The notes beneath the pieces were generated by a model. It saw nothing but the letters and a program-made list of their open reading frames with translations. It was not told the origin of the DNA and searched no databases. 64,000 nucleotides of DNA, taken from the NCBI GenBank assembly GCA_038065395.1, contig JBBTRB010000004.1, positions 135,178 to 199,177 on the forward strand. Reading direction: 5' to 3'. The DNA comes from Patescibacteria group bacterium. GTDB taxonomy: Bacteria > Patescibacteriota > Minisyncoccia > Phycocordibacterales > PALSA-1337. This document shows, one piece after another, positions 6,384 to 14,253 of the stretch (position 1 is the stretch's first letter; every line of letters starts with the position of its first letter). The translations under genes were made by a program, and so were the position numbers.

Positions 6384-6441
6384 GTGACATTTCACGACTT
6401 CGAAATAGTGTGTTATATTGCCGAAGTCAAATAGGTTATTT

Positions 6442-6513
6442 GGCCCTATCGTCTAATGGCTAGGACGGAGCCTTCTCAAGGCTTAAATCGGGGTTCGACT
6501 CCCCGTAGGGTCA
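6442..6513 (+). tRNA. tRNA-Glu (anticodon CUC)
   Basis: Manual cloverleaf fold: acceptor GGCCCTA/TAGGGTC, D-arm GTCT..GGAC, anticodon stem GAGCC/GGCTT with loop TTCTCAA, T-arm CGGGG-TTCGACT-CCCCG, discriminator A. No encoded CCA. Confidence 0.8.
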
Positions 6514-6884
6514 CAGGTTTTGAGCGAGCACAGCGAGTGAAAAAGCTGTGACCCTAAGCAAAGCGTCTGCACGCTTTGCGTCGGGGAGTCGAAAAGGTTC
6601 TCCCTTATTTTCGACACTCTGAAGCGTAGCGGAAGAGGGGAGAAAATGGGAAACCTGTACTGAAGCTGTAAGCTTCGACTCCCCGTAGGGTCACAAACAG
6701 ATATGAAACGGTTTTCCAGTGCCTGGAATCCTCGTTTACACTTATATTCCAACGTATCTTCTATGATGGTGAGTTCGGAAAAGATTAACTTGATGATTGC
6801 TTCCTTTTCTGTTGGTTTGGCGAAATCATAATATAAACAAACGTTTTTCAAGAGTTCGGAAAGTTTTACTATATCCTTCGTCAT
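6483..6884 (-). CDS. Hypothetical small protein. Only the N-terminal ~60 codons (6700..6884) lie in unique sequence; the rest of the ORF reads through the att-like repeats and the tRNA
   Basis: ORF only. No recognisable motif. Its 3' part overlaps the tRNA and repeats, so the true extent is doubtful. Confidence 0.2.
   Translation of the reverse strand: MTKDIVKLSELLKNVCLYYDFAKPTEKEAIIKLIFSELTIIEDTLEYKCKRGFQALENRFISVCDPTGSRSLQLQYRFPIFSPLPLRFRVSKIRENLFDSPTQSVQTLCLGSQLFHSLCSLKTCDPTGSRTPI
6494..6700. repeat. Cluster of reiterated tRNA-Glu 3'-end fragments (att-like scars)
   Basis: A direct 22-bp exact copy of the tRNA T-arm/acceptor is at 6674..6695. Inverted partial copies are at 6540..6552 and 6579..6597. 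A further partial direct copy lies at 12954..12965. Confidence 0.65.
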
Positions 6885-7247
6885 GAGGTTTCTCCCCCTT
6901 CTACAATTTAAGTGGCATCCAGCAGATGGCTTGTAGATGCGCCCACCATTTCTGCTAGCAACAAAAAGTCCGCTATTGGACGGACAGGTGTACCACGAGA
7001 AATGGAGACCTATCAGTCCAGCAACGGACTTAAATTTCTTGTGGCACTTTCTCCGTTCAATGAAAGAAGCATGCTACGAGTTTTGGAATCAGAAATTTTA
7101 TAAAACAAAATTGAAAAAATGTACTTGACCCTTTGACAGAGTTACAGATGAGTAAAATACCCCTTAAAATAAGGATATTCTAAAAACTAGAGAAAGGGTC
7201 AAAAAACACAGAATTGGCTGAATCGTAAAAAAACTATTTGACAGTAT

Positions 7248-7628
7248 TTATTTTTGGTACAAACCGCGCACTTTATATGCCATATCTATAGCCGTAGCAC
7301 GCGTCGAGAAATCTGGCTCGGTAAAGGTAACTTTCACCCTGTTTTCACCCCTTTCAACCGTCAGTATTTGCCTTCCTCCTGATACAAAAATGGACTGAAG
7401 GTCTTCATCAGTAAGGAGGACTGGAAAATCCATTGTGGAGAGCTTCTGCGCCTCTAGAAGCTTCGTATGCACAGAAACTATCTTCTCATCAGAGATGAAC
7501 TCTTGGAGGTACTCCCGCCAGAATTTCGTATGCTTTATCTTCTGGGGGTTGCGGGCGTAGCTTTCGCTATATCCCGCCTCGCGCATTGCTTCAGCTAGAG
7601 AGCGCGGTTTGCCACCTTTTGCAACCAT
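7248..7628 (-). CDS. Small HTH protein resembling a phage terminase small subunit (Terminase_2-like). Probable mobile-element remnant
   Basis: N-terminal SLAEAMREAGYSESYARNPQKI resembles the AGYS...A HTH signature of terminase small subunits. ~126 aa. GC noticeably higher than neighbouring island genes. Confidence 0.35.
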   Translation of the reverse strand: MVAKGGKPRSLAEAMREAGYSESYARNPQKIKHTKFWREYLQEFISDEKIVSVHTKLLEAQKLSTMDFPVLLTDEDLQSIFVSGGRQILTVERGENRVKVTFTEPDFSTRATAIDMAYKVRGLYQK

Positions 7629-7745
7629 TTTTTCGATGGTTGCTTTTGCGCGTAGGTTTTCATGGCTTTTTTCATTCTTTCAATTATATCAATAAACCCT
7701 CAACAAAAAGGTATTTTTTTGGTATAATTTGAAAATCACATTTTT

Positions 7746-10700
7746 ATGAATTTTTCACTGAATTCCTATATAAAATACTGTTTAGGCTATCTTAGTCTCA
7801 CAAGACCTACAGGATTCAATAGAGGCACTTCAATAGACATAAAAATCCCTCAAGAATATTTCTCCTTAAGTAAACTTACGAACGGTGATACGGACGGGAG
7901 TTTGAGTGAGATTATCAACTTAGACTATTACTACAATACAGACCCGAAGGATGTTACTGAAGAAAACGAAGAAAAGTATAAAAAGGAAAAGGCACTTGCG
8001 CTACAGCTAGATGAAATATACAGCAAAGCGAAAAATGACACTTTCACAAAAGAAACCATATTGCGTTTCGGACGTTTTGATTTTGAAGTACTCGAAGAGC
8101 CTATAGTTGATACAGACGAAGAAGTTTTAGAAACCAAAAAAGACACACCAGTAGAAGAAGCAAAATTGGTATCAAAACAATTTTACCTTTTTTCATTGCC
8201 AGTAAGAATTGATAAGGAAAAAGACAAAAATAATATCGATAAATACACGATTATTCCAGTTGACTTTGAAGTTCGCCTAAACCTTCCTCCACTGTACGAA
8301 ATTTTTAGAACTTACAAAAAAGAAGATTTGGTGTACGAATTTTTAAACGAATATACCAAACTAGAAAGCGAAGGTGGTTTTTCTATTCCAATCCCTTCTG
8401 AAAAAATATTCTTAGACTTATGGCACATTCTTAAGGCAAAATTACGCCTGACTGAAGCAGTTTTTAATGAAAGTTCATTTACTCTTGATGACCTTCGATT
8501 AACTCTTGCCCCAAGAGCAAACTTCTTCTTGGTTGAAGATTTAACAAAGCTAGCGAAAGAAAAAGAGGAGCTTTTGGAAGGTACTTCGCTCTCGGGTTGG
8601 TTTTCTGAAGAAGGTCTAAACGTAAATTCGGATAGTTGTGAAGAAAAATCTCTATATTTTCCATTCCCATATGATAAGTTTCAAAGCGCAACCACTTCTC
8701 TTCTAGGTAATAAGGCTTCAATAATCCAAGGGCCACCAGGAACGGGAAAATCAGAGACTATTTCAAACATAATTTCTCATCTTGCTGTAAATAAAAACAA
8801 GGTTTTGTTCGTAAGTCAGAAACCCCAAGCTCTACGTGTTGTGAAGGATAAACTGAAAACCCTAGGCGTACCTCTTTTATTTGGATATATCCCGAGCGTT
8901 AAATTTGAGCAATCCCAGGATGAAGAGAGCGACACCATATCGTCGCAACTTGCAGCACTCGATACATATGGAGCTTATAAAGGTGTTGTAAAATCATCTT
9001 CTAATCTGAATAGCTTTACTCAAAATTCAGATGTTGTTTTCGATAAAAGAGATAAAATCATCTCCCTTGAAAGAGAGATATTTAGGCTTGAAGAACAGAA
9101 GCGTAACTACGATTTTCTTGACCAATTACCCTCAATAGATGAAGAGAGAATTATAACCGACCTCACGGAAGATTTATTTAGTGCTTATAAAAATATACTT
9201 CACAAAATATCGGCAAATAAAAATCTTATTGAGAATACCCACGACATATCAAAAAAATATAGTTTTGATAAAGAGCTATTTTGCGATAGTACTTTTTCAG
9301 ATTTACTCAAGACTGTATTGGCAGATGTTAAAAAGACTGGTTTCGATAGGTCATTTAAACTTGGAAGGTATATAAATAATCTTAGTAGAAAAATAAGACT
9401 CAAATCTCATCTAGGACAACTACCAAAAGAAATTTATGAAGAAATAGACAGCATATTAAAAAAGGACTCATCGCGGCATAGCGCAACAAAAGAATTGGAG
9501 CAGCTACTCGGTTTCTGTATTTATTGGGAAGCAATACAAGAAAATGAGAAGTTAGAAATATCTTTACAAGAAATCGAAAGTAACTTAAATCTGTCCAGAG
9601 ATGATTTTTCTACAATTTCTTCTTTTTTGAAAGAAAACTCTTTATCAGTATCGGAGCTTGTTGTTAAGCTTTCCGACCGCGCTCTCTTGAATCACAACCA
9701 GCAAAATTTTAGAGAAGATATTTCAACCCTTAAGAAAGAAGTTACGGGTAAAAATCAAATTACAAGGAAAGATATAGTGGCGCAATACCTATCTTCAATA
9801 ATCGAAGACAATATAAAAAATAATGTCTCACAGGTTAAAATATACAGAAAGCTTCAAGAGTTACAGAAAGCTTTTAAAAAATCAAAGAAAGCTTTCAAAA
9901 CTTTCGATAAGTTGAAAAATGACCCGACCAACTTTGAGACAATATTGAACATTGTTCCTGTCTGGATTATGGATTTAGACGATGCAAGTCGTCTTATTCC
10001 TTTAGTCTCAAACATGTTCGATTATGTCGTATTTGATGAAGCATCACAGTGCAATATTGCGTACACAATACCCTCAATGTATAGAGCGAAAAAGGCTGTA
10101 TTTGTTGGCGACCCAGAACAAATGAGAGACAGTACTGTAATGTTTAAATCGAACCAAGCATTTGACCAGCTCGCGAGCCGTTACAAAGTACCAGAGAGTC
10201 TACAAATAAAACCGACGGGTACAGCAGTGCAGTCTGTTTTGGATATTGCTAAAACAAGATTTGGAATACCCAAGATACTTCAATATCACTACCGTTCTCC
10301 GATGGAGTTGATTGGTTTTAGTAATAAGTATTTTTATGAACCGAAAGGCAAACGGCTTATTGCTTTGAATAACAAATATCTTACTTATAAGGATACAAAT
10401 CGGATAATGGTGCTTCATAATATCGAGTACAGCGGTATTGGAGAGATTGGCGATAATACAAACAATGCAGAGGCAGTGAAAGCACTGGAGCTTTATCTAG
10501 ATATGATTAAAGACCCAAAGTATGAAAATAAGAGTTTTGCCATACTCACGTTTTTTAATGACCAAGCAGAGCTAATCCGAAAGGTTTTTGAAGATAACAG
10601 GATTAAAGAAAGTGATAAATTAAAAATTGCTGTAATAGAAGGTATTCAGGGGGATGAAAAAGATATTGTTATATATTCTTTCGTTATTAGGGATGCCGCA

Positions 10701-11261
10701 CAAAAAAGACAGTATCGCCCTCTGACAGGAGAAACTGGAGATATGCAGGCCGATATTAACGCAGGTAGAGTAAACGTTGCTTTCTCAAGAGCAAAGCTTC
10801 AAGTTCACTGTATTATAAGTATGCCTATAGAAAAAATACCTTCAGGTATATGGATAAAGAAATACCTGGAATATGTGAGAGACAACGGTGAGGTATCTGC
10901 TTCCAGATTAACACTTCAAAAATTCGATAGTTACTTCGAGGAAGAATTCTATCATCTTCTTAAAAAGAAGCTTGGTAAGGGCTACACAATTCAAAACCAA
11001 GTCGAAAGTTGTGGCTTTAAAATTGATTTTGTTGCAACTAACACAAGTACTGGAAGACAGTTAGCAATTGAATGTGATGGGCCGACACACTTTAAAGACC
11101 ACATCGACGAGGCATATGGTATTTATGTTGATAGTGATATTCAGAGACAGAGGGTTTTGGAAAGTGCTGGTTGGACATTCTGTAGAATTGGATATTCCGA
11201 ATGGATTGAGAGCGAGGATAATAAAGAAACTATCGTTAAAAACATCAAACTACTGCTTTAA
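7746..11261 (+). CDS. SF1 (Upf1/DNA2-like) helicase fused to a C-terminal DUF559/Vsr-like (PD-(D/E)xK) endonuclease domain, with a ~330-aa N-terminal region. Hhe-like single-protein defence architecture
   Basis: Walker A IIQGPPGTGKSETI, Walker B/motif II YVVFDEASQC, motif VI RVNVAFSRAKLQVH. C-terminus GFKIDFVA...LAIECDGPTHF...QRQRVLESAGWTFCRIGYSEW matches the DUF559/Vsr-like fold signature. Confidence 0.75.
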   Translation: MNFSLNSYIKYCLGYLSLTRPTGFNRGTSIDIKIPQEYFSLSKLTNGDTDGSLSEIINLDYYYNTDPKDVTEENEEKYKKEKALALQLDEIYSKAKNDTFTKETILRFGRFDFEVLEEPIVDTDEEVLETKKDTPVEEAKLVSKQFYLFSLPVRIDKEKDKNNIDKYTIIPVDFEVRLNLPPLYEIFRTYKKEDLVYEFLNEYTKLESEGGFSIPIPSEKIFLDLWHILKAKLRLTEAVFNESSFTLDDLRLTLAPRANFFLVEDLTKLAKEKEELLEGTSLSGWFSEEGLNVNSDSCEEKSLYFPFPYDKFQSATTSLLGNKASIIQGPPGTGKSETISNIISHLAVNKNKVLFVSQKPQALRVVKDKLKTLGVPLLFGYIPSVKFEQSQDEESDTISSQLAALDTYGAYKGVVKSSSNLNSFTQNSDVVFDKRDKIISLEREIFRLEEQKRNYDFLDQLPSIDEERIITDLTEDLFSAYKNILHKISANKNLIENTHDISKKYSFDKELFCDSTFSDLLKTVLADVKKTGFDRSFKLGRYINNLSRKIRLKSHLGQLPKEIYEEIDSILKKDSSRHSATKELEQLLGFCIYWEAIQENEKLEISLQEIESNLNLSRDDFSTISSFLKENSLSVSELVVKLSDRALLNHNQQNFREDISTLKKEVTGKNQITRKDIVAQYLSSIIEDNIKNNVSQVKIYRKLQELQKAFKKSKKAFKTFDKLKNDPTNFETILNIVPVWIMDLDDASRLIPLVSNMFDYVVFDEASQCNIAYTIPSMYRAKKAVFVGDPEQMRDSTVMFKSNQAFDQLASRYKVPESLQIKPTGTAVQSVLDIAKTRFGIPKILQYHYRSPMELIGFSNKYFYEPKGKRLIALNNKYLTYKDTNRIMVLHNIEYSGIGEIGDNTNNAEAVKALELYLDMIKDPKYENKSFAILTFFNDQAELIRKVFEDNRIKESDKLKIAVIEGIQGDEKDIVIYSFVIRDAAQKRQYRPLTGETGDMQADINAGRVNVAFSRAKLQVHCIISMPIEKIPSGIWIKKYLEYVRDNGEVSASRLTLQKFDSYFEEEFYHLLKKKLGKGYTIQNQVESCGFKIDFVATNTSTGRQLAIECDGPTHFKDHIDEAYGIYVDSDIQRQRVLESAGWTFCRIGYSEWIESEDNKETIVKNIKLLL

Positions 11262-11275
11262 ATAATATCTTATTA

Positions 11276-12871
11276 TTGTATATGCCTCTCTTAACAAAAA
11301 CAGACTTTATTTTGTATCGTGAATGTCCAAATAATGTCTGGTTGAAAAGAAACAAACCAGAGGAGTACTGTAAGTTTGAGATTTCTGAATTTGAAAAATC
11401 ACTTGCTGTAATAGGTAATGATGTAGAAGAGTTGGCTCGAGGGATGTTTCCTTCGGGTTATCTTGTGGAGCGGCGAAGTGCTGGCGCACAAGAATTAACT
11501 CAAAAGTTAATTGCTGAAAAAACTCCTGTGATTTTCCAAGCAGTTTTTGCTACTGATAAATGTCTTGCGGCTACTGATGTTTTGCAATGGAATGATTCAG
11601 CCCAGAAATATGATATTTATGAAATAAAGATGTCATCTACGGAAGAGGATGACGAAGAAGAAGTGGAAGAAGGGAAGCCTAAGAAAGTTAATAAAAAGAA
11701 AGAACTCCAGTATGAATATGACCTCGCCTTTCAGGTAAATATTGCCGAGGCATGTGGTGTTCCACTACATAAAAAATACCTTGTTTGTTTGAACCGAGCA
11801 TATGTAAGGAATGGTGAGCTTGATTTTAGACCGAACCAGCTTTTCATTGTTGAGGATAAAACCGACGCAATCGAACTTATGAAAGACGTCGTTGGAGCGG
11901 AGATGTCTCAATCACAAAACTTCCTAGCGGCCACTGCGATGCCTCCCAGCCCTTGTCCTTGCTATTACAAAGGGCGCAACTCGCATTGTACGGCATTTAC
12001 ATACTTAAACCCGACCGTACCCGCATACAGTGTCCATGACTTGAATAGAATCGGAAATAGTAAGAAGTATCTAAAAGAATTACTCGATGAGGGCATTTTG
12101 GAGATTAGCGCTGTTCCTGTTGATGATAGACTTAAGCCAAAGCCCAAGAAAAGTACAGAGAAACCAAGTAAGCCGAAAAAGTTAAACCAAGTCTTAGTTC
12201 ACAAATCTCAAGAGCCTTTAATTGATATTGATTCGATAAAAAATGAACTTGGCGCACTCGTATTTCCACTTTATTTTCTCGATTATGAGACTTATCCGAC
12301 AGCAATTCCTCCTTATAATGGTTATCGACCATATCAGCAAATTGTCTTTCAGTATTCATTACACATCCTGAAAGATAAAGATTCCGAACCGATTTCTTTG
12401 GAATGTTTAATATTAGACGGTGAACCTTCTGAACGTATAGTTAAAAGCCTGCGTGAACATATTGGTGATACTGGAACTGTAATTTCTTGGTTTAAGACTT
12501 TCGAAAACTCTAGAAATCGTGAGCTGGCAACCCTAATACCGAGCCGTAGAGATTTTCTTCTCGGTCTTATTACTCGAACGTATGATTTGATGGATATAGT
12601 AGATGGTCAGCATTACGTACATCCTGGTTTTGAAGGCAGAGCATCAATTAAAAAAGTTTTGCCTGTTATTGCTCCACATCTATCTTATAAAAAACTATGT
12701 GTCCAGAGTGGTACAGATGCAATTGAAGCGTATAGGCAAATAACTAAAGGAGAGTTAACAGGTGAATTAGCCAAAGAAAAGGAGCTTCAAATGCTTGAAT
12801 ACTGCAAGTTGGATACCTACGCCATGTACGTTTTATGGAACTTCTTCAATAAGTTAGTGGATGAAAGTTAA
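11276..12871 (+). CDS. DUF2779-like protein with an N-terminal Cas4/RecB-like nuclease region and a Cys cluster
   Basis: N-terminus KTDFILYRECPNNVWL, central CPCYYKGRNSHC, C-terminal block YFLDYETYPTAIPPYNGYRPYQQIVFQYSLHIL typical of DUF2779. It starts 15 nt after the helicase stop, so is probably co-transcribed. Confidence 0.55.
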   Translation: MYMPLLTKTDFILYRECPNNVWLKRNKPEEYCKFEISEFEKSLAVIGNDVEELARGMFPSGYLVERRSAGAQELTQKLIAEKTPVIFQAVFATDKCLAATDVLQWNDSAQKYDIYEIKMSSTEEDDEEEVEEGKPKKVNKKKELQYEYDLAFQVNIAEACGVPLHKKYLVCLNRAYVRNGELDFRPNQLFIVEDKTDAIELMKDVVGAEMSQSQNFLAATAMPPSPCPCYYKGRNSHCTAFTYLNPTVPAYSVHDLNRIGNSKKYLKELLDEGILEISAVPVDDRLKPKPKKSTEKPSKPKKLNQVLVHKSQEPLIDIDSIKNELGALVFPLYFLDYETYPTAIPPYNGYRPYQQIVFQYSLHILKDKDSEPISLECLILDGEPSERIVKSLREHIGDTGTVISWFKTFENSRNRELATLIPSRRDFLLGLITRTYDLMDIVDGQHYVHPGFEGRASIKKVLPVIAPHLSYKKLCVQSGTDAIEAYRQITKGELTGELAKEKELQMLEYCKLDTYAMYVLWNFFNKLVDES

Positions 12872-13013
12872 TTTATTACAAGTATGGATTCTAGGCTTTT
12901 AATCGAGAAAGCGATAGAATCTCTATATTTAACAAGTTCGGAAAGCCACCCTATAGGGTCACAAAATTTGAATGAACTTATTTTTTTATAACTAATAAAA
13001 ATTTAAAATACAT

Positions 13014-14222: not shown

Positions 14223-14253
14223 GAAAACGCCGTACAGGCCGGCGTTTTCTAAT
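14223..14253 (+). terminator. Rho-independent terminator (perfect 10-bp stem gaaaacgccg/cggcgttttc, 7-nt loop, T-run)
   Basis: Hairpin read directly. Lies 8 nt after the stop of the NYN gene. Confidence 0.8.

What the first reader, a model, noticed from the sequence alone, without database searches (positions are those of the whole stretch)
6494..6700. Reiterated tRNA-Glu 3'-end fragments in both orientations (att-site scars) immediately after the tRNA
The last 22 nt of the tRNA (ttcgactccccgtagggtcaca) recur exactly at 6674..6695. Partial copies in inverted orientation occur at 6540..6552 (ctgtgaccctaag) and 6579..6597 (cgtcggggagtcgaaaagg). A further direct partial copy, tagggtcacaaa, lies at 12954..12965 just before the HExxH/NYN module.

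Multiple att-like copies suggest repeated or tandem integrations at this tRNA hotspot. An alternative is a small structured RNA built from tRNA-derived arms. The 12954 copy would split the island into two cassettes: helicase + DUF2779, and HExxH + NYN.
Basis: seen in the sequence. Interest (0 to 1): 0.6.

Follow-up and report, generated by a model that had tools for sequence, protein, structure and literature searches.

The report
Structured mini-element inserted in tRNA-Glu
The repeated tRNA pieces are one copy of a widespread, apparently undescribed family of about 150-base non-coding, tightly folded insertion elements that sit in the T-loop side of tRNA genes of Patescibacteria, followed here by the ends of a separate decayed recombinase-borne defence island.

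Summary
The 22-nt tRNA-Glu(CTC) 3' part (6494-6515) recurs exactly at 6674-6695, and split inverted copies lie between the two. One reader coordinate is off by 6 nt.

It is not a random scar. The 180-nt unit belongs to a family found next to at least 29 tRNA isoacceptors in more than 117 metagenome contigs and in several Paceibacteria MAGs. The layout is constant:
- the tRNA
- a hairpin
- an inverted copy of that tRNA's own T-arm/acceptor 3' strand
- a conserved three-way-junction core
- a second copy of the tRNA 3' part

A covariance model built without the window finds it at 76.7 bits (E = 1.6e-20). Covariation supports all three helices. Rfam and my literature searches returned nothing.

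Relatives without the element show that homology breaks exactly 5' of T54, so copy 2 is the displaced original tRNA end.

Copy 2 also serves as attL of a decayed large-serine-recombinase island (6696-12953). The 12954 copy is that island's conserved attR.

The most likely reading is a non-autonomous mobile element acting through a folded single strand. The moving enzyme, and whether the folded strand is RNA or DNA, remain unknown.

The parts
6442..6514 (+). tRNA-Glu(CTC), intact. A promoter-like site lies at 6391-6419.
   Evidence: ARAGORN; Rfam tRNA model 59.7 bits; promoter scan.
6494..6515 (+). Copy 1 (T): T54 to discriminator +2. This is the 3' part of the functional tRNA.
   Evidence: Exact 22-nt repeat.
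6516..6540 (+). H: trailer and loop of the long hairpin. It carries the purine-rich GAGCGAGCACAGCGAGTGA loop. No terminator is present here.
   Evidence: A homologous loop occurs in L003, L026, L030, L129 and L147.
6541..6558 (+). T' part 1: the complement of the acceptor 3' strand plus trailer (AAAAGCTGTGACCCTAAG).
   Evidence: Inverted repeat I19 at 94%. It covaries with the tRNA in relatives, for example GTGACTCTAAG in L016 and L036.
6558..6579 (+). Internal hairpin GCAAAGCG-tctgca-CGCTTTGC that splits the inverted copy.
   Evidence: The stem covaries in L026, L030, L036, L037 and L147.
6580..6595 (+). T' part 2 (anti-T): the complement of the T-loop and the T-stem 3' strand, followed by the GAAA joiner.
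   Evidence: 12-nt exact complement. Family-wide covariation at T-loop positions 57 and 59.
6581..6690 (+). Match to covariance model R1: a three-way-junction core with helix I formed by T' and copy 2.
   Evidence: 76.7 bits, E = 1.6e-20, from a model built without this sequence.
6596..6655 (+). Helix II, a long variable hairpin (GGTTCTCCC...GGGAAACC).
   Evidence: Base pairs covary (UA/CG).
6656..6676 (+). Joiner TGTACT, then helix III GAAGC-TGTAA-GCTTC. The 3' strand of helix III supplies T54-C56 of copy 2.
   Evidence: Conserved motif. 104 of 105 instances are complementary at the two degenerate pairs.
6674..6695 (+). Copy 2: the displaced original tRNA 3' part. It is also the attL side of the recombinase island.
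   Evidence: Exact repeat. It is collinear with the tRNA 3' part plus downstream DNA of element-free relatives L033, L080 and L005.
6674..6884 (-). C-terminal remnant (about 69 aa) of a large serine recombinase gene that reads into the tRNA 3' part.
   Evidence: 62% identity, E = 1e-28, to residues 494-562 of the 574-aa L033 protein. That protein has Resolvase and Recombinase domains.
6696..12953 (.). Low-GC island carrying the recombinase remnant, a 126-aa ORF, an SF1 helicase-REase and a DUF2779 protein.
   Evidence: GC 0.32-0.39 against 0.48-0.52; Pfam; PADLOC PDC-S37 at 1e-67.
12934..12965 (+). attR-like end of the island: AAGTTCGGAAAGCCACCCTATAGGGTCACAAA.
   Evidence: The motif AGTTCNGAAAGCCAC-N6-8-GGGTCAC is also present in L129, L131, L138, L159 (three times), L015, L022, L039 and L078, always downstream of tRNA-Glu.

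Best explanation
The 180-nt unit (6494/6516 to 6673/6695) is one copy of a non-autonomous, non-coding mobile element that inserts into the T-loop side of tRNA genes.

Shown:
- The element consists of a replacement tRNA 3' part (X, from about position 59 to a few nt past the discriminator), a hairpin H, an inverted copy T' of that same tRNA segment, and a conserved core of about 75-100 nt. The core folds as a three-way junction and ends in ...GYTTCGA, which mimics T54-A58.
- The original tRNA 3' part is pushed downstream and remains as the second direct repeat.
- The element has two modules. The left module (X-H-T') is specific for one tRNA species. The core is generic and is exchanged between left modules.

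Inferred:
- Insertion happens by recombination at or just 3' of T-loop position 58, between the element's own TTCGA-X and the tRNA gene. An enzyme encoded elsewhere would catalyse it.
- The substrate or cofactor is the folded sense strand (ssDNA or transcript). In that fold X:T' rebuilds a duplex copy of the target, and the core is the recognised handle.

In this window the element landed between the tRNA body and an older large-serine-recombinase island. Copy 2 now carries that island's attL, and its attR is at 12934-12965.
For: Insertion status:
- Relatives L033, L080 and L005 have the tRNA directly joined to DNA homologous to what follows copy 2 here. Homology breaks exactly 5' of T54.
- Only 12 of about 60 orthologous murF-tRNA-Glu loci carry such a unit.

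Family:
It is always downstream of and co-oriented with a tRNA, covering 29 isoacceptors and 17 amino acids, with a median period of 157 nt.
- Model R1 finds the window at E = 1.6e-20 and gives 128 hits in 100 loci, often several per contig.

Mobile-element signatures:
- Tandem arrays occur, some with different cores (L133, L134, L189, L089, L104, L125).
- Copy 2 is exact in 36 of 68 instances and truncated or decayed in the rest, while T' still matches the functional tRNA.
- A 3.7-kb cargo-carrying version in L075 ends in the same core plus copy.
- In L129, L131 and L159 the recombinase island sits inside copy 1; in the window it sits at copy 2.

Modularity:
- L095 has identical cores at tRNA-Lys and tRNA-Leu with different T'.
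- L099 and L134 have the same T-H-T' with different cores.

Junction position:
- Position 54 of copy 2 covaries with the helix III partner rather than with the tRNA.
- Linkers (AT, G, AAATGTAYTCATGK) sit after TTCGAR.

Single-strand fold:
- 97.2% of cells are paired. 116 cells show changes on both sides, against 38.7 in shuffles (0 of 500 shuffles reach it).
- The sense strand folds better than the antisense in 70 of 92 elements (p = 2e-8).
- Transition mismatches in T':X are G.U-type 37 times and A.C-type 14 times.
Against: - No recombinase, transposase or reverse transcriptase recurs within 5 kb of 117 loci. There are no hits in viral contigs, phage records or plasmid records. No free or circular form was seen.
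- It is unclear how a tRNA-specific left module arose for 29 isoacceptors.
- The orthologous elements of the window and L003 are 86% identical although MurF is only 61% identical and flanking DNA does not align. This fits purifying selection on a useful RNA as well as it fits recent spread.
- A three-way junction with conserved joiners and a sense-strand bias looks more like a functional RNA than like a typical transposon end. The bias is stronger where no terminator separates the core from the tRNA (38 vs 4, against 14 vs 6).
- All instances were found with a core-derived pattern or model, so conservation of the core is partly ascertainment.
Confidence: 0.5

Rival explanations
1. The unit is a cis-acting structured RNA that belongs to the tRNA transcription unit. 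It would act as a 3'-trailer domain whose T' segment pairs alternately with the tRNA 3' part or with copy 2, for example to control or assist tRNA maturation, stability or termination. On this view it is maintained by host-level selection and has spread among tRNA genes only on an evolutionary time scale.
For: - It is always co-oriented with the tRNA.
- In the window there is a promoter-like site upstream and no terminator between tRNA and core.
- There is strong covariation in three helices.
- The sense strand folds better than the antisense, most clearly where H has no terminator.
- Mismatches are biased toward G.U.
- UUCG and GNRA tetraloops cap helix II in several members.
- The window and L003 elements are 86% identical despite 61% MurF identity.
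- There are two deep alternative folds, at -124.7 and about -113.4 kcal/mol.
Against: - The unit is absent from about 48 of 60 orthologous loci, and 128 of 238 tRNA genes show no trace of it. It is therefore dispensable.
- 20 of 68 members have an intrinsic-terminator-like hairpin between the tRNA and T'.
- Copy 2 decays in about half of the instances.
- Tandem arrays with unrelated cores, and an unrelated core family (type C) in the same layout, are hard to explain by a single function.
Confidence: 0.25
2. The unit is an RNA-guided or self-catalytic mobile element. T' would be an internal guide complementary to the ligated junction TTCGA|X, as in a group I IGS or group II EBS. The three-way-junction core would be either a small ribozyme or the scaffold of a guide RNA for a trans-acting nuclease or recombinase. 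Copy 1 and copy 2 would be the two alternative partners of the guide.
For: - T' covers both sides of the 58/59 junction in the orientation of an IGS.
- The joiners GAAA and UGUAC and the UGUAA loop are conserved.
- No protein gene is associated with the element.
- The core followed by flank-derived X resembles a scaffold-plus-guide layout. This last comparison rests on my own knowledge of TnpB reRNA and is not tested.
Against: - The tRNA is complete without any splicing, and copy 2 is often decayed.
- No Rfam ribozyme, intron or omega-RNA model matches at E up to 10.
- Fixing an RNA-level insertion in DNA needs a reverse transcriptase. None is nearby, and group II introns are reported absent from the phylum (PMC13011429).
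- Terminators lie upstream of the core in 29% of members.
Confidence: 0.13
3. The fragments are passive att scars. On this view they are leftovers of successive integrations and deletions of ordinary integrase-bearing islands at this tRNA, with no identity of their own.
For: - Direct repeats that start in the T-loop are the classic footprint of tRNA-targeting integrases (established knowledge).
- A decayed recombinase island really is present.
Against: - Independent decay would not give the same 110-190-nt architecture, conserved core sequence and compensatory changes at 29 isoacceptors in more than 100 contigs.
- The serine-recombinase island uses a different core site (TAGGGTCAC) and different end motifs.
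Confidence: 0.07
4. The repeats are an assembly artefact, produced by collapsed or duplicated reads.
For: None.
Against: - The locus is identical in 5 contigs of independent assemblies.
- Homologous units occur in many unrelated assemblies.
Confidence: 0.01

Closest known systems
tRNA-targeting integrative islands that leave partial tRNA repeats, for example tycheposons of Prochlorococcus (10.1101/2020.12.28.424599) and classical T-loop-class integrase islands
   Same: - The tRNA 3' part is replaced and the original copy is displaced as a direct repeat.
- New arrivals push older ones outward.
- Tandem arrays and decayed partial tRNAs occur (for tycheposons; here).
   Different: - The element here is only 110-190 nt, with no integrase and no cargo.
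- It has an obligatory inverted copy of the target and a covarying three-way-junction core.
- One core family serves 29 isoacceptors.
Folded single-strand recombination sites: integron attC and CTX-phage attP(+)
   Same: An imperfect palindrome folds so that one strand rebuilds a duplex recombination site. Structure is conserved rather than sequence. Cassette-like arrays form and strand bias is present. The comparison rests on my own knowledge; the structural features here come.
   Different: - The stem here copies the target tRNA segment rather than a recombinase core site.
- No IntI or Xer link was tested or seen.
- attC has no separate conserved junction core.
MITEs and palindrome-associated elements (PATEs/REPs) mobilised in trans
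   Same: Small, non-coding, multi-copy per genome, hairpin-rich, with no transposase of their own.
   Different: - The inverted 'ends' are copies of the target and therefore differ at every tRNA.
- The 'duplication' is 20-35 nt.
- Insertion is strictly into tRNA genes and in one orientation.
Group I introns in Patescibacteria tRNA genes (PMC13011429)
   Same: Protein-free structured insertions in tRNA genes of the same phylum. A guide-like segment is complementary to both exon sides.
   Different: - Those introns sit in the anticodon loop (35/36 and other sites), interrupt the tRNA and must splice.
- This unit leaves the tRNA intact.
- It is half the size and matches no intron model.
Large-serine-recombinase prophages and islands at tRNA 3' ends
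   Same: This applies to the neighbouring 6.3-kb island. The recombinase gene abuts and reads into the tRNA 3' end, and conserved attR-like ends are present.
   Different: The recombinase is reduced to 69 codons here. This island is a separate entity from the mini-element.

Membership tests
Integrase-borne tRNA island (T-loop class) | Direct repeat of the tRNA 3' part starting in the T-loop and flanking the element | tested here: met
   The repeat 6494-6515 / 6674-6695 starts at T54.
Integrase-borne tRNA island (T-loop class) | Integrase or recombinase gene inside the element | tested here: not met
   The 158 nt between the repeats hold no ORF of their own. No recurrent protein lies within 5 kb of 117 loci.
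MITE | Terminal inverted repeats that are constant within the family | tested here: not met
   The inverted arms (T' and T) equal the local tRNA and differ between tRNAs. Only TCGAA...TTCGA is shared.
MITE | Short target-site duplication (2-14 bp) | tested here: not met
   The repeat is 19-35 nt, fixed at its left end at the T-loop and variable at its right end.
MITE | Small, non-coding, many copies per genome | tested here: met
   111-292 nt long, with up to 4 model hits per 6-15-kb locus.
Any Rfam 15 family (including group I/II introns, small ribozymes, IS605 omega-RNA motifs, drum) | Match to the covariance model at the gathering score | tested here: not met
   Only tRNA passes. The best other hit in the window is drum at 18.9 bits against a gathering score of 43, and it is not repeated in 24 other loci.
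Group I intron in tRNA | Interrupts the tRNA so that splicing is required | tested here: not met
   An intact cloverleaf is formed with copy 1.
Integron attC / CTX attP-type folded site | Imperfect palindrome whose structure, not sequence, is conserved, with strand bias | tested here: met
   T-H-T' covaries with each tRNA. The sense strand is favoured (46 vs 22 for T-H-T').
Integron attC / CTX attP-type folded site | Recombination by IntI or XerCD at conserved core sites (R'/R'' or dif-like) | not tested
   No core-site motif search or recombinase co-occurrence analysis was done. Complete genomes are needed.
IS200/IS605-type PATE | Similar subterminal hairpins at both ends, insertion 3' of a fixed 4-5-nt target without duplication | tested here: inconclusive
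   Insertion 3' of TTCGA and an end that also finishes in TTCGA fit this family. The left hairpin, however, is target-specific and a long repeat is present.
Large-serine-recombinase island (neighbouring 6696-12953) | Resolvase plus Recombinase domain protein at one end | tested here: inconclusive
   Only the last 69 codons survive (62% identity to the L033 LSR, E = 1e-28). The catalytic domains are gone. The full protein is present in L033.
Large-serine-recombinase island (neighbouring 6696-12953) | Conserved att ends shared with related islands | tested here: met
   The motif at 12934-12965 is shared with about 10 loci. TAGGGTCACAAA is present at both ends.

The most novel reading that the evidence does not exclude
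The T-H-T'-core-T units (type A here, type C elsewhere) are a new class of protein-free or RNA/ssDNA-guided mobile elements. They would use an inverted copy of the target as a long guide to home into the universally conserved T-loop of any tRNA gene. The three-way-junction core would act as a ribozyme or as the scaffold for an unknown recombinase. That would amount to a programmable, tRNA-directed insertion system.
Probability: 0.2. Interest if true: 0.9.

Novelty: new variant of a known kind. Interest (0 to 1): 0.72.

Why it matters
If the unit is mobile, this is a very small insertion element that colonises essential genes without harming them, because it carries a replacement 3' part. Its target recognition appears to be written as an inverted copy of the target. 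That is directly testable and could be reprogrammed.

The family is abundant in Patescibacteria, a phylum with few recognised mobile elements. It also creates extra att-like tRNA ends that other islands use, as in this window, where a defence island sits at the displaced copy.

If it is instead a functional RNA, it would be a large new class of tRNA-linked structured RNAs missing from Rfam.

Either way, tRNA annotation and island-boundary callers will misread these loci.

Tried and rejected
- **Rfam.** Four scans of the window and 24 other loci found no family besides tRNA. The weak drum hit in the window (18.9 bits) did not recur.
- **Known ribozymes.** By eye, the hammerhead, twister-sister and K-turn readings of the core do not fit. 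There is no CUGANGA, and the internal loops of helix II are not conserved.
- **Protein gene across the repeats.** The 133-aa minus-strand ORF 6483-6884 has no Pfam or PHROG hit. Only its first 71 codons are real, as the recombinase remnant.
- **Associated enzyme.** All-against-all clustering of 1293 neighbouring ORFs gave only housekeeping families.
- **Free or viral forms.** Three viral-contig scans and phage and plasmid BLAST found nothing.
- **Literature.** Six searches found no description.
- **In-situ templating of T'.** I considered T' being made at each insertion by fold-back synthesis, P-nucleotide-like hairpin opening, or an RT stop at m1A58. I set this aside because the tRNA-Glu left module, including its loop, is homologous across species while the cores differ.
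- **Genome-wide homogenisation of cores.** This is rejected as a general rule because single contigs and single arrays hold different subtypes.

Full report
**Observation**

ARAGORN and the Rfam tRNA model place an intact tRNA-Glu(CTC) at 6442-6514. Its last 22 nt, TTCGACTCCCCGTAGGGTCACA (6494-6515), recur exactly at 6674-6695. This stretch starts at T54, the first base of the T-loop. No other match with up to 3 mismatches exists in the 64-kb window, and none is expected by chance.

Between the two copies lies an inverted copy of the same segment, split in two:
- AAAAGCTGTGACCCTAAG (6541-6558) is complementary to the acceptor 3' strand plus trailer.
- GTCGGGGAGTCGAA (6580-6593) is complementary to the T-loop and the T-stem 3' strand.
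- A perfect 8-bp hairpin (6558-6579) separates the two halves.

Everything else is as stated.

The 12-mer TAGGGTCACAAA is also exact at 12954-12965.

The locus is identical in contigs from five independent Hainich groundwater assemblies. An assembly artefact is therefore excluded.

**Context**

Upstream lies the dcw cluster (mraZ, rsmH, PBP, murF). MurF relatives (40-61% identity) all come from Paceibacteria/Parcubacteria MAGs. About 60 of 79 such loci keep the murF-tRNA-Glu(CTC) synteny.

**The unit is conserved, not a chance scar**

In 12 of those loci the tRNA is followed 110-210 nt later by a second copy of its own, species-specific 3' part, with an inverted copy in between. The trailer hairpin, the internal hairpin and a hairpin with a UGUAA loop just before copy 2 all change by compensatory substitutions.

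I scanned the JGI metagenome collection with the core motif CCTGTACNGARKCTGTAAGMYTC.
- In nearly all loci the motif lies 95-140 nt downstream of, and co-oriented with, a tRNA gene.
- The tRNAs cover 29 isoacceptors and 17 amino acids.
- The motif is followed by a copy of that particular tRNA's 3' part.
- The median period is 157 nt.

The architecture is constant: tRNA | H (a hairpin whose stem often includes the acceptor 3' strand) | T' (inverted copy of the tRNA from T54 onward) | GAAA | helix II | UGUAC | helix III (GARKC-UGUAA-GMYUC) | copy 2.

**Structure**

RNAalifold on 45 members gives a three-way junction. Helix I is T' paired with positions 57-65 of copy 2, and helix III uses T54-C56 of copy 2.
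- 97.2% of cells are paired.
- 116 cells have changes on both sides, against 38.7 +/- 4.4 in shuffles (0 of 500 shuffles reach this value).
- Slid controls collapse to 26-53% paired.
- At the two degenerate pairs allowed by my search pattern, 104 of 105 distinct instances are complementary.
- T' covaries with the variable T-loop positions: position 59 shows AU 17, UA 13, CG 11, GC 3; position 57 shows CG 28, UA 14.

A covariance model built without the window finds 6581-6690 at 76.7 bits, E = 1.6e-20. It is the only hit in the window. The same model finds L003, L026, L030, L017, L022, L075 and L054 among the MAG loci, and 128 hits in 100 metagenome loci.

No Rfam 15 family other than tRNA matches this or 24 other loci. 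Six literature searches found no description.

A second, unrelated GC-rich core (type C: L016, L036, L078, L096, L156, L127, L082) sits in the same T-H-T'-core-T layout.

**It is an insertion**

Element-free relatives L033, L080 and L005 align with the window from copy 2's T54 onward for about 200 nt. Upstream of T54 they continue into the tRNA body, whereas the window continues into helix III. Copy 2 is therefore the original tRNA 3' end. Copy 1, H, T' and the core are the added 180 nt.

Further signs of insertion and turnover:
- Only 110 of 238 distinct tRNA genes in the held loci show any of the features, and every inverted copy I inspected was followed by a core of one type or another.
- Copy 2 is exact for at least 19 nt in 36 of 68 cases and truncated or diverged in the rest, while T' still matches the functional tRNA at 12-13 of 13 positions.
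- Tandem arrays exist, some with different cores.
- L075 carries a 3.7-kb version with KilA-N and HTH genes that ends in the same helix II, helix III and copy.

The right junction lies after T-loop position 58, for two reasons:
- Position 54 of copy 2 follows its helix III partner (C when the partner is G) rather than the tRNA.
- Some members carry linkers (AT, G, AAATGTAYTCATGK) between TTCGAR and the target-derived sequence.

**Modularity**

The tRNA-Glu(CTC) left module, including its GAGCGA-rich loop, is homologous in the window, L003, L026, L030, L092, L129 and L147, although these carry three core subtypes. L095 has identical cores behind tRNA-Lys and tRNA-Leu with different T'. L099 and L134 have the same T-H-T' with different cores. 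The left module is therefore tRNA-specific, and the core is generic and exchangeable.

**The neighbouring island**

In L033 the gene abutting the tRNA is a 574-aa large serine recombinase with Resolvase and Recombinase domains. It reads into the tRNA 3' end. The window's minus-strand ORF from 6884 is its last 69 codons (62% identity, E = 1e-28).

The 30 nt at 12934-12965 match the motif AGTTCNGAAAGCCAC-N6-8-GGGTCAC. This motif occurs downstream of tRNA-Glu in L129, L131, L138, L159 (three times), L015, L022, L039 and L078.

So 6696-12953 is a decayed recombinase island. Its GC is 0.32-0.39. It carries a PDC-S37-like helicase-REase and a DUF2779 protein.

In L129, L131 and L159 the same kind of island sits inside copy 1, to the left of H-T'-core-copy 2. 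In the window it sits at copy 2. This nesting shows two independent mobile entities using the same tRNA.

**RNA or DNA?**

Points toward a folded sense strand:
- The sense strand folds better than the antisense in 70 of 92 cores (p = 2e-8) and in 46 of 68 T-H-T' hairpins.
- Transition mismatches in T':X are G.U-type 37 times and A.C-type 14 times.
- Loop motifs are strand-specific: AGCGA 41 against TCGCT 2, and GCGNAGC 12 against 1.

Points that remain ambiguous:
- 20 of 68 members have an intrinsic-terminator-like hairpin between the tRNA and T'. The window has none, and it has a promoter-like site upstream of the tRNA.
- The strand bias is stronger without a terminator (38 vs 4) than with one (14 vs 6).
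- The window transcript has two deep folds. The global minimum (-124.7 kcal/mol, z = -7.85) pairs the tRNA 5' half with copy 2. The alternative, tRNA plus a separate T'-core-copy 2 domain, sums to about -113.4 kcal/mol.

**Mechanism**

No recombinase, transposase or RT recurs within 5 kb of 117 loci. No copy was found in viral contigs, phage records or plasmid records.

My best reading, at about 0.5 confidence, is a non-autonomous element that:
- recombines at or just 3' of T-loop position 58 with the tRNA gene;
- brings a replacement 3' part;
- is handled as a folded sense strand in which X:T' rebuilds a duplex copy of the target, with the three-way junction as the recognised handle.

The steps shown are the insertion status, architecture, covariation, modularity and junction position. 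The steps inferred are the recombination chemistry, the trans-acting enzyme and the nature of the folded strand.

The rivals are:
- a cis-acting functional RNA of the tRNA transcript (0.25);
- a guide-bearing or self-catalytic mobile RNA (0.13);
- passive integrase scars (0.07).

**Comparison and novelty**

- The unit behaves like tRNA-targeting islands such as tycheposons: partial tRNA repeats, with newcomers pushing older elements outward. It lacks an integrase and cargo.
- It resembles folded attC or CTX attP sites in logic, but membership was not tested.
- It fails the MITE definition on constant TIRs and short duplications.
- It is not a group I intron.

I rate it a new variant of a known kind. 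I give about a 0.2 chance that it represents a new guided or protein-free insertion mechanism.

Noticed in passing
window 7746-12871: The cargo of the recombinase island looks defence-related. It holds a 1171-aa SF1 helicase fused to an MTES_1575/DUF559 endonuclease (PADLOC candidate PDC-S37, 1e-67; also Hhe and MkoA/C) followed by a 531-aa DUF2779 protein.
   Followed up: partly
The stretch is still low-GC (0.35) and ends at a terminator-like hairpin near 14225. No boundary repeat was found.
   Followed up: no
L016 6799-6985; L036 5383-5570; L078 11390-11566; L096 527-740; L156; L127; L082: A second, unrelated GC-rich core family (type C, about 110-130 nt, motifs GGAGCGAAGCGA and GAGTCGGTGCC) sits in the same tRNA-hairpin-inverted copy-core-copy layout. 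It has no Rfam match.
   Followed up: partly
L075 11541-15240: A 3.7-kb cargo-carrying relative of the mini-element holds an XRE-type HTH, small secreted or membrane proteins and a KilA-N protein. It ends in helix II, helix III and a third tRNA 3' copy, in tandem with a 153-nt mini-element.
   Followed up: partly
L159 (three sites) and L015, L022, L039, L078: The attR-like motif AGTTCTGAAAGCCAC...GGGTCAC recurs up to three times in one locus, which suggests tandem serine-recombinase islands at tRNA-Glu. A TATAAT-like box lies about 20 nt upstream of the motif in several loci.
   Followed up: no
Loops of H and helix II in 68 elements, e.g. window 6522-6540 and 6620-6634: There are strand-specific purine-rich loop motifs: AGCGA 41 against TCGCT 2; GAGCGA 17 against 0; GCGNAGC 12 against 1 (1.9 expected). 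GCGNAGC is the sequence of the unusually stable DNA GNA minihairpin; that identification is from memory.
   Followed up: partly
L121, L158, L180 (copy 2): A conserved 13-14-nt linker, AAATGTAYTCATGK, is inserted between the element's terminal TTCGAR and the target-derived T-stem sequence. Shorter linkers (AT, G) occur in L089, L096, L135 and L126.
   Followed up: no
L099 about 7680-8770 (minus strand): Two units about 1 kb apart share the same T-H-T' but have unrelated cores. The associated tRNA-like 3' end (GGTTCGAATCCTGCCCGAGGAGC) was not called by ARAGORN in tRNA mode and might be a tmRNA or an unusual tRNA.
   Followed up: no
window 7248-7628 (minus strand): A 126-aa ORF with no Pfam, PHROG or PADLOC match sits next to the recombinase remnant. 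Its N-terminus looks like an HTH of the terminase-small-subunit or excisionase type. That is only an impression.
   Followed up: no
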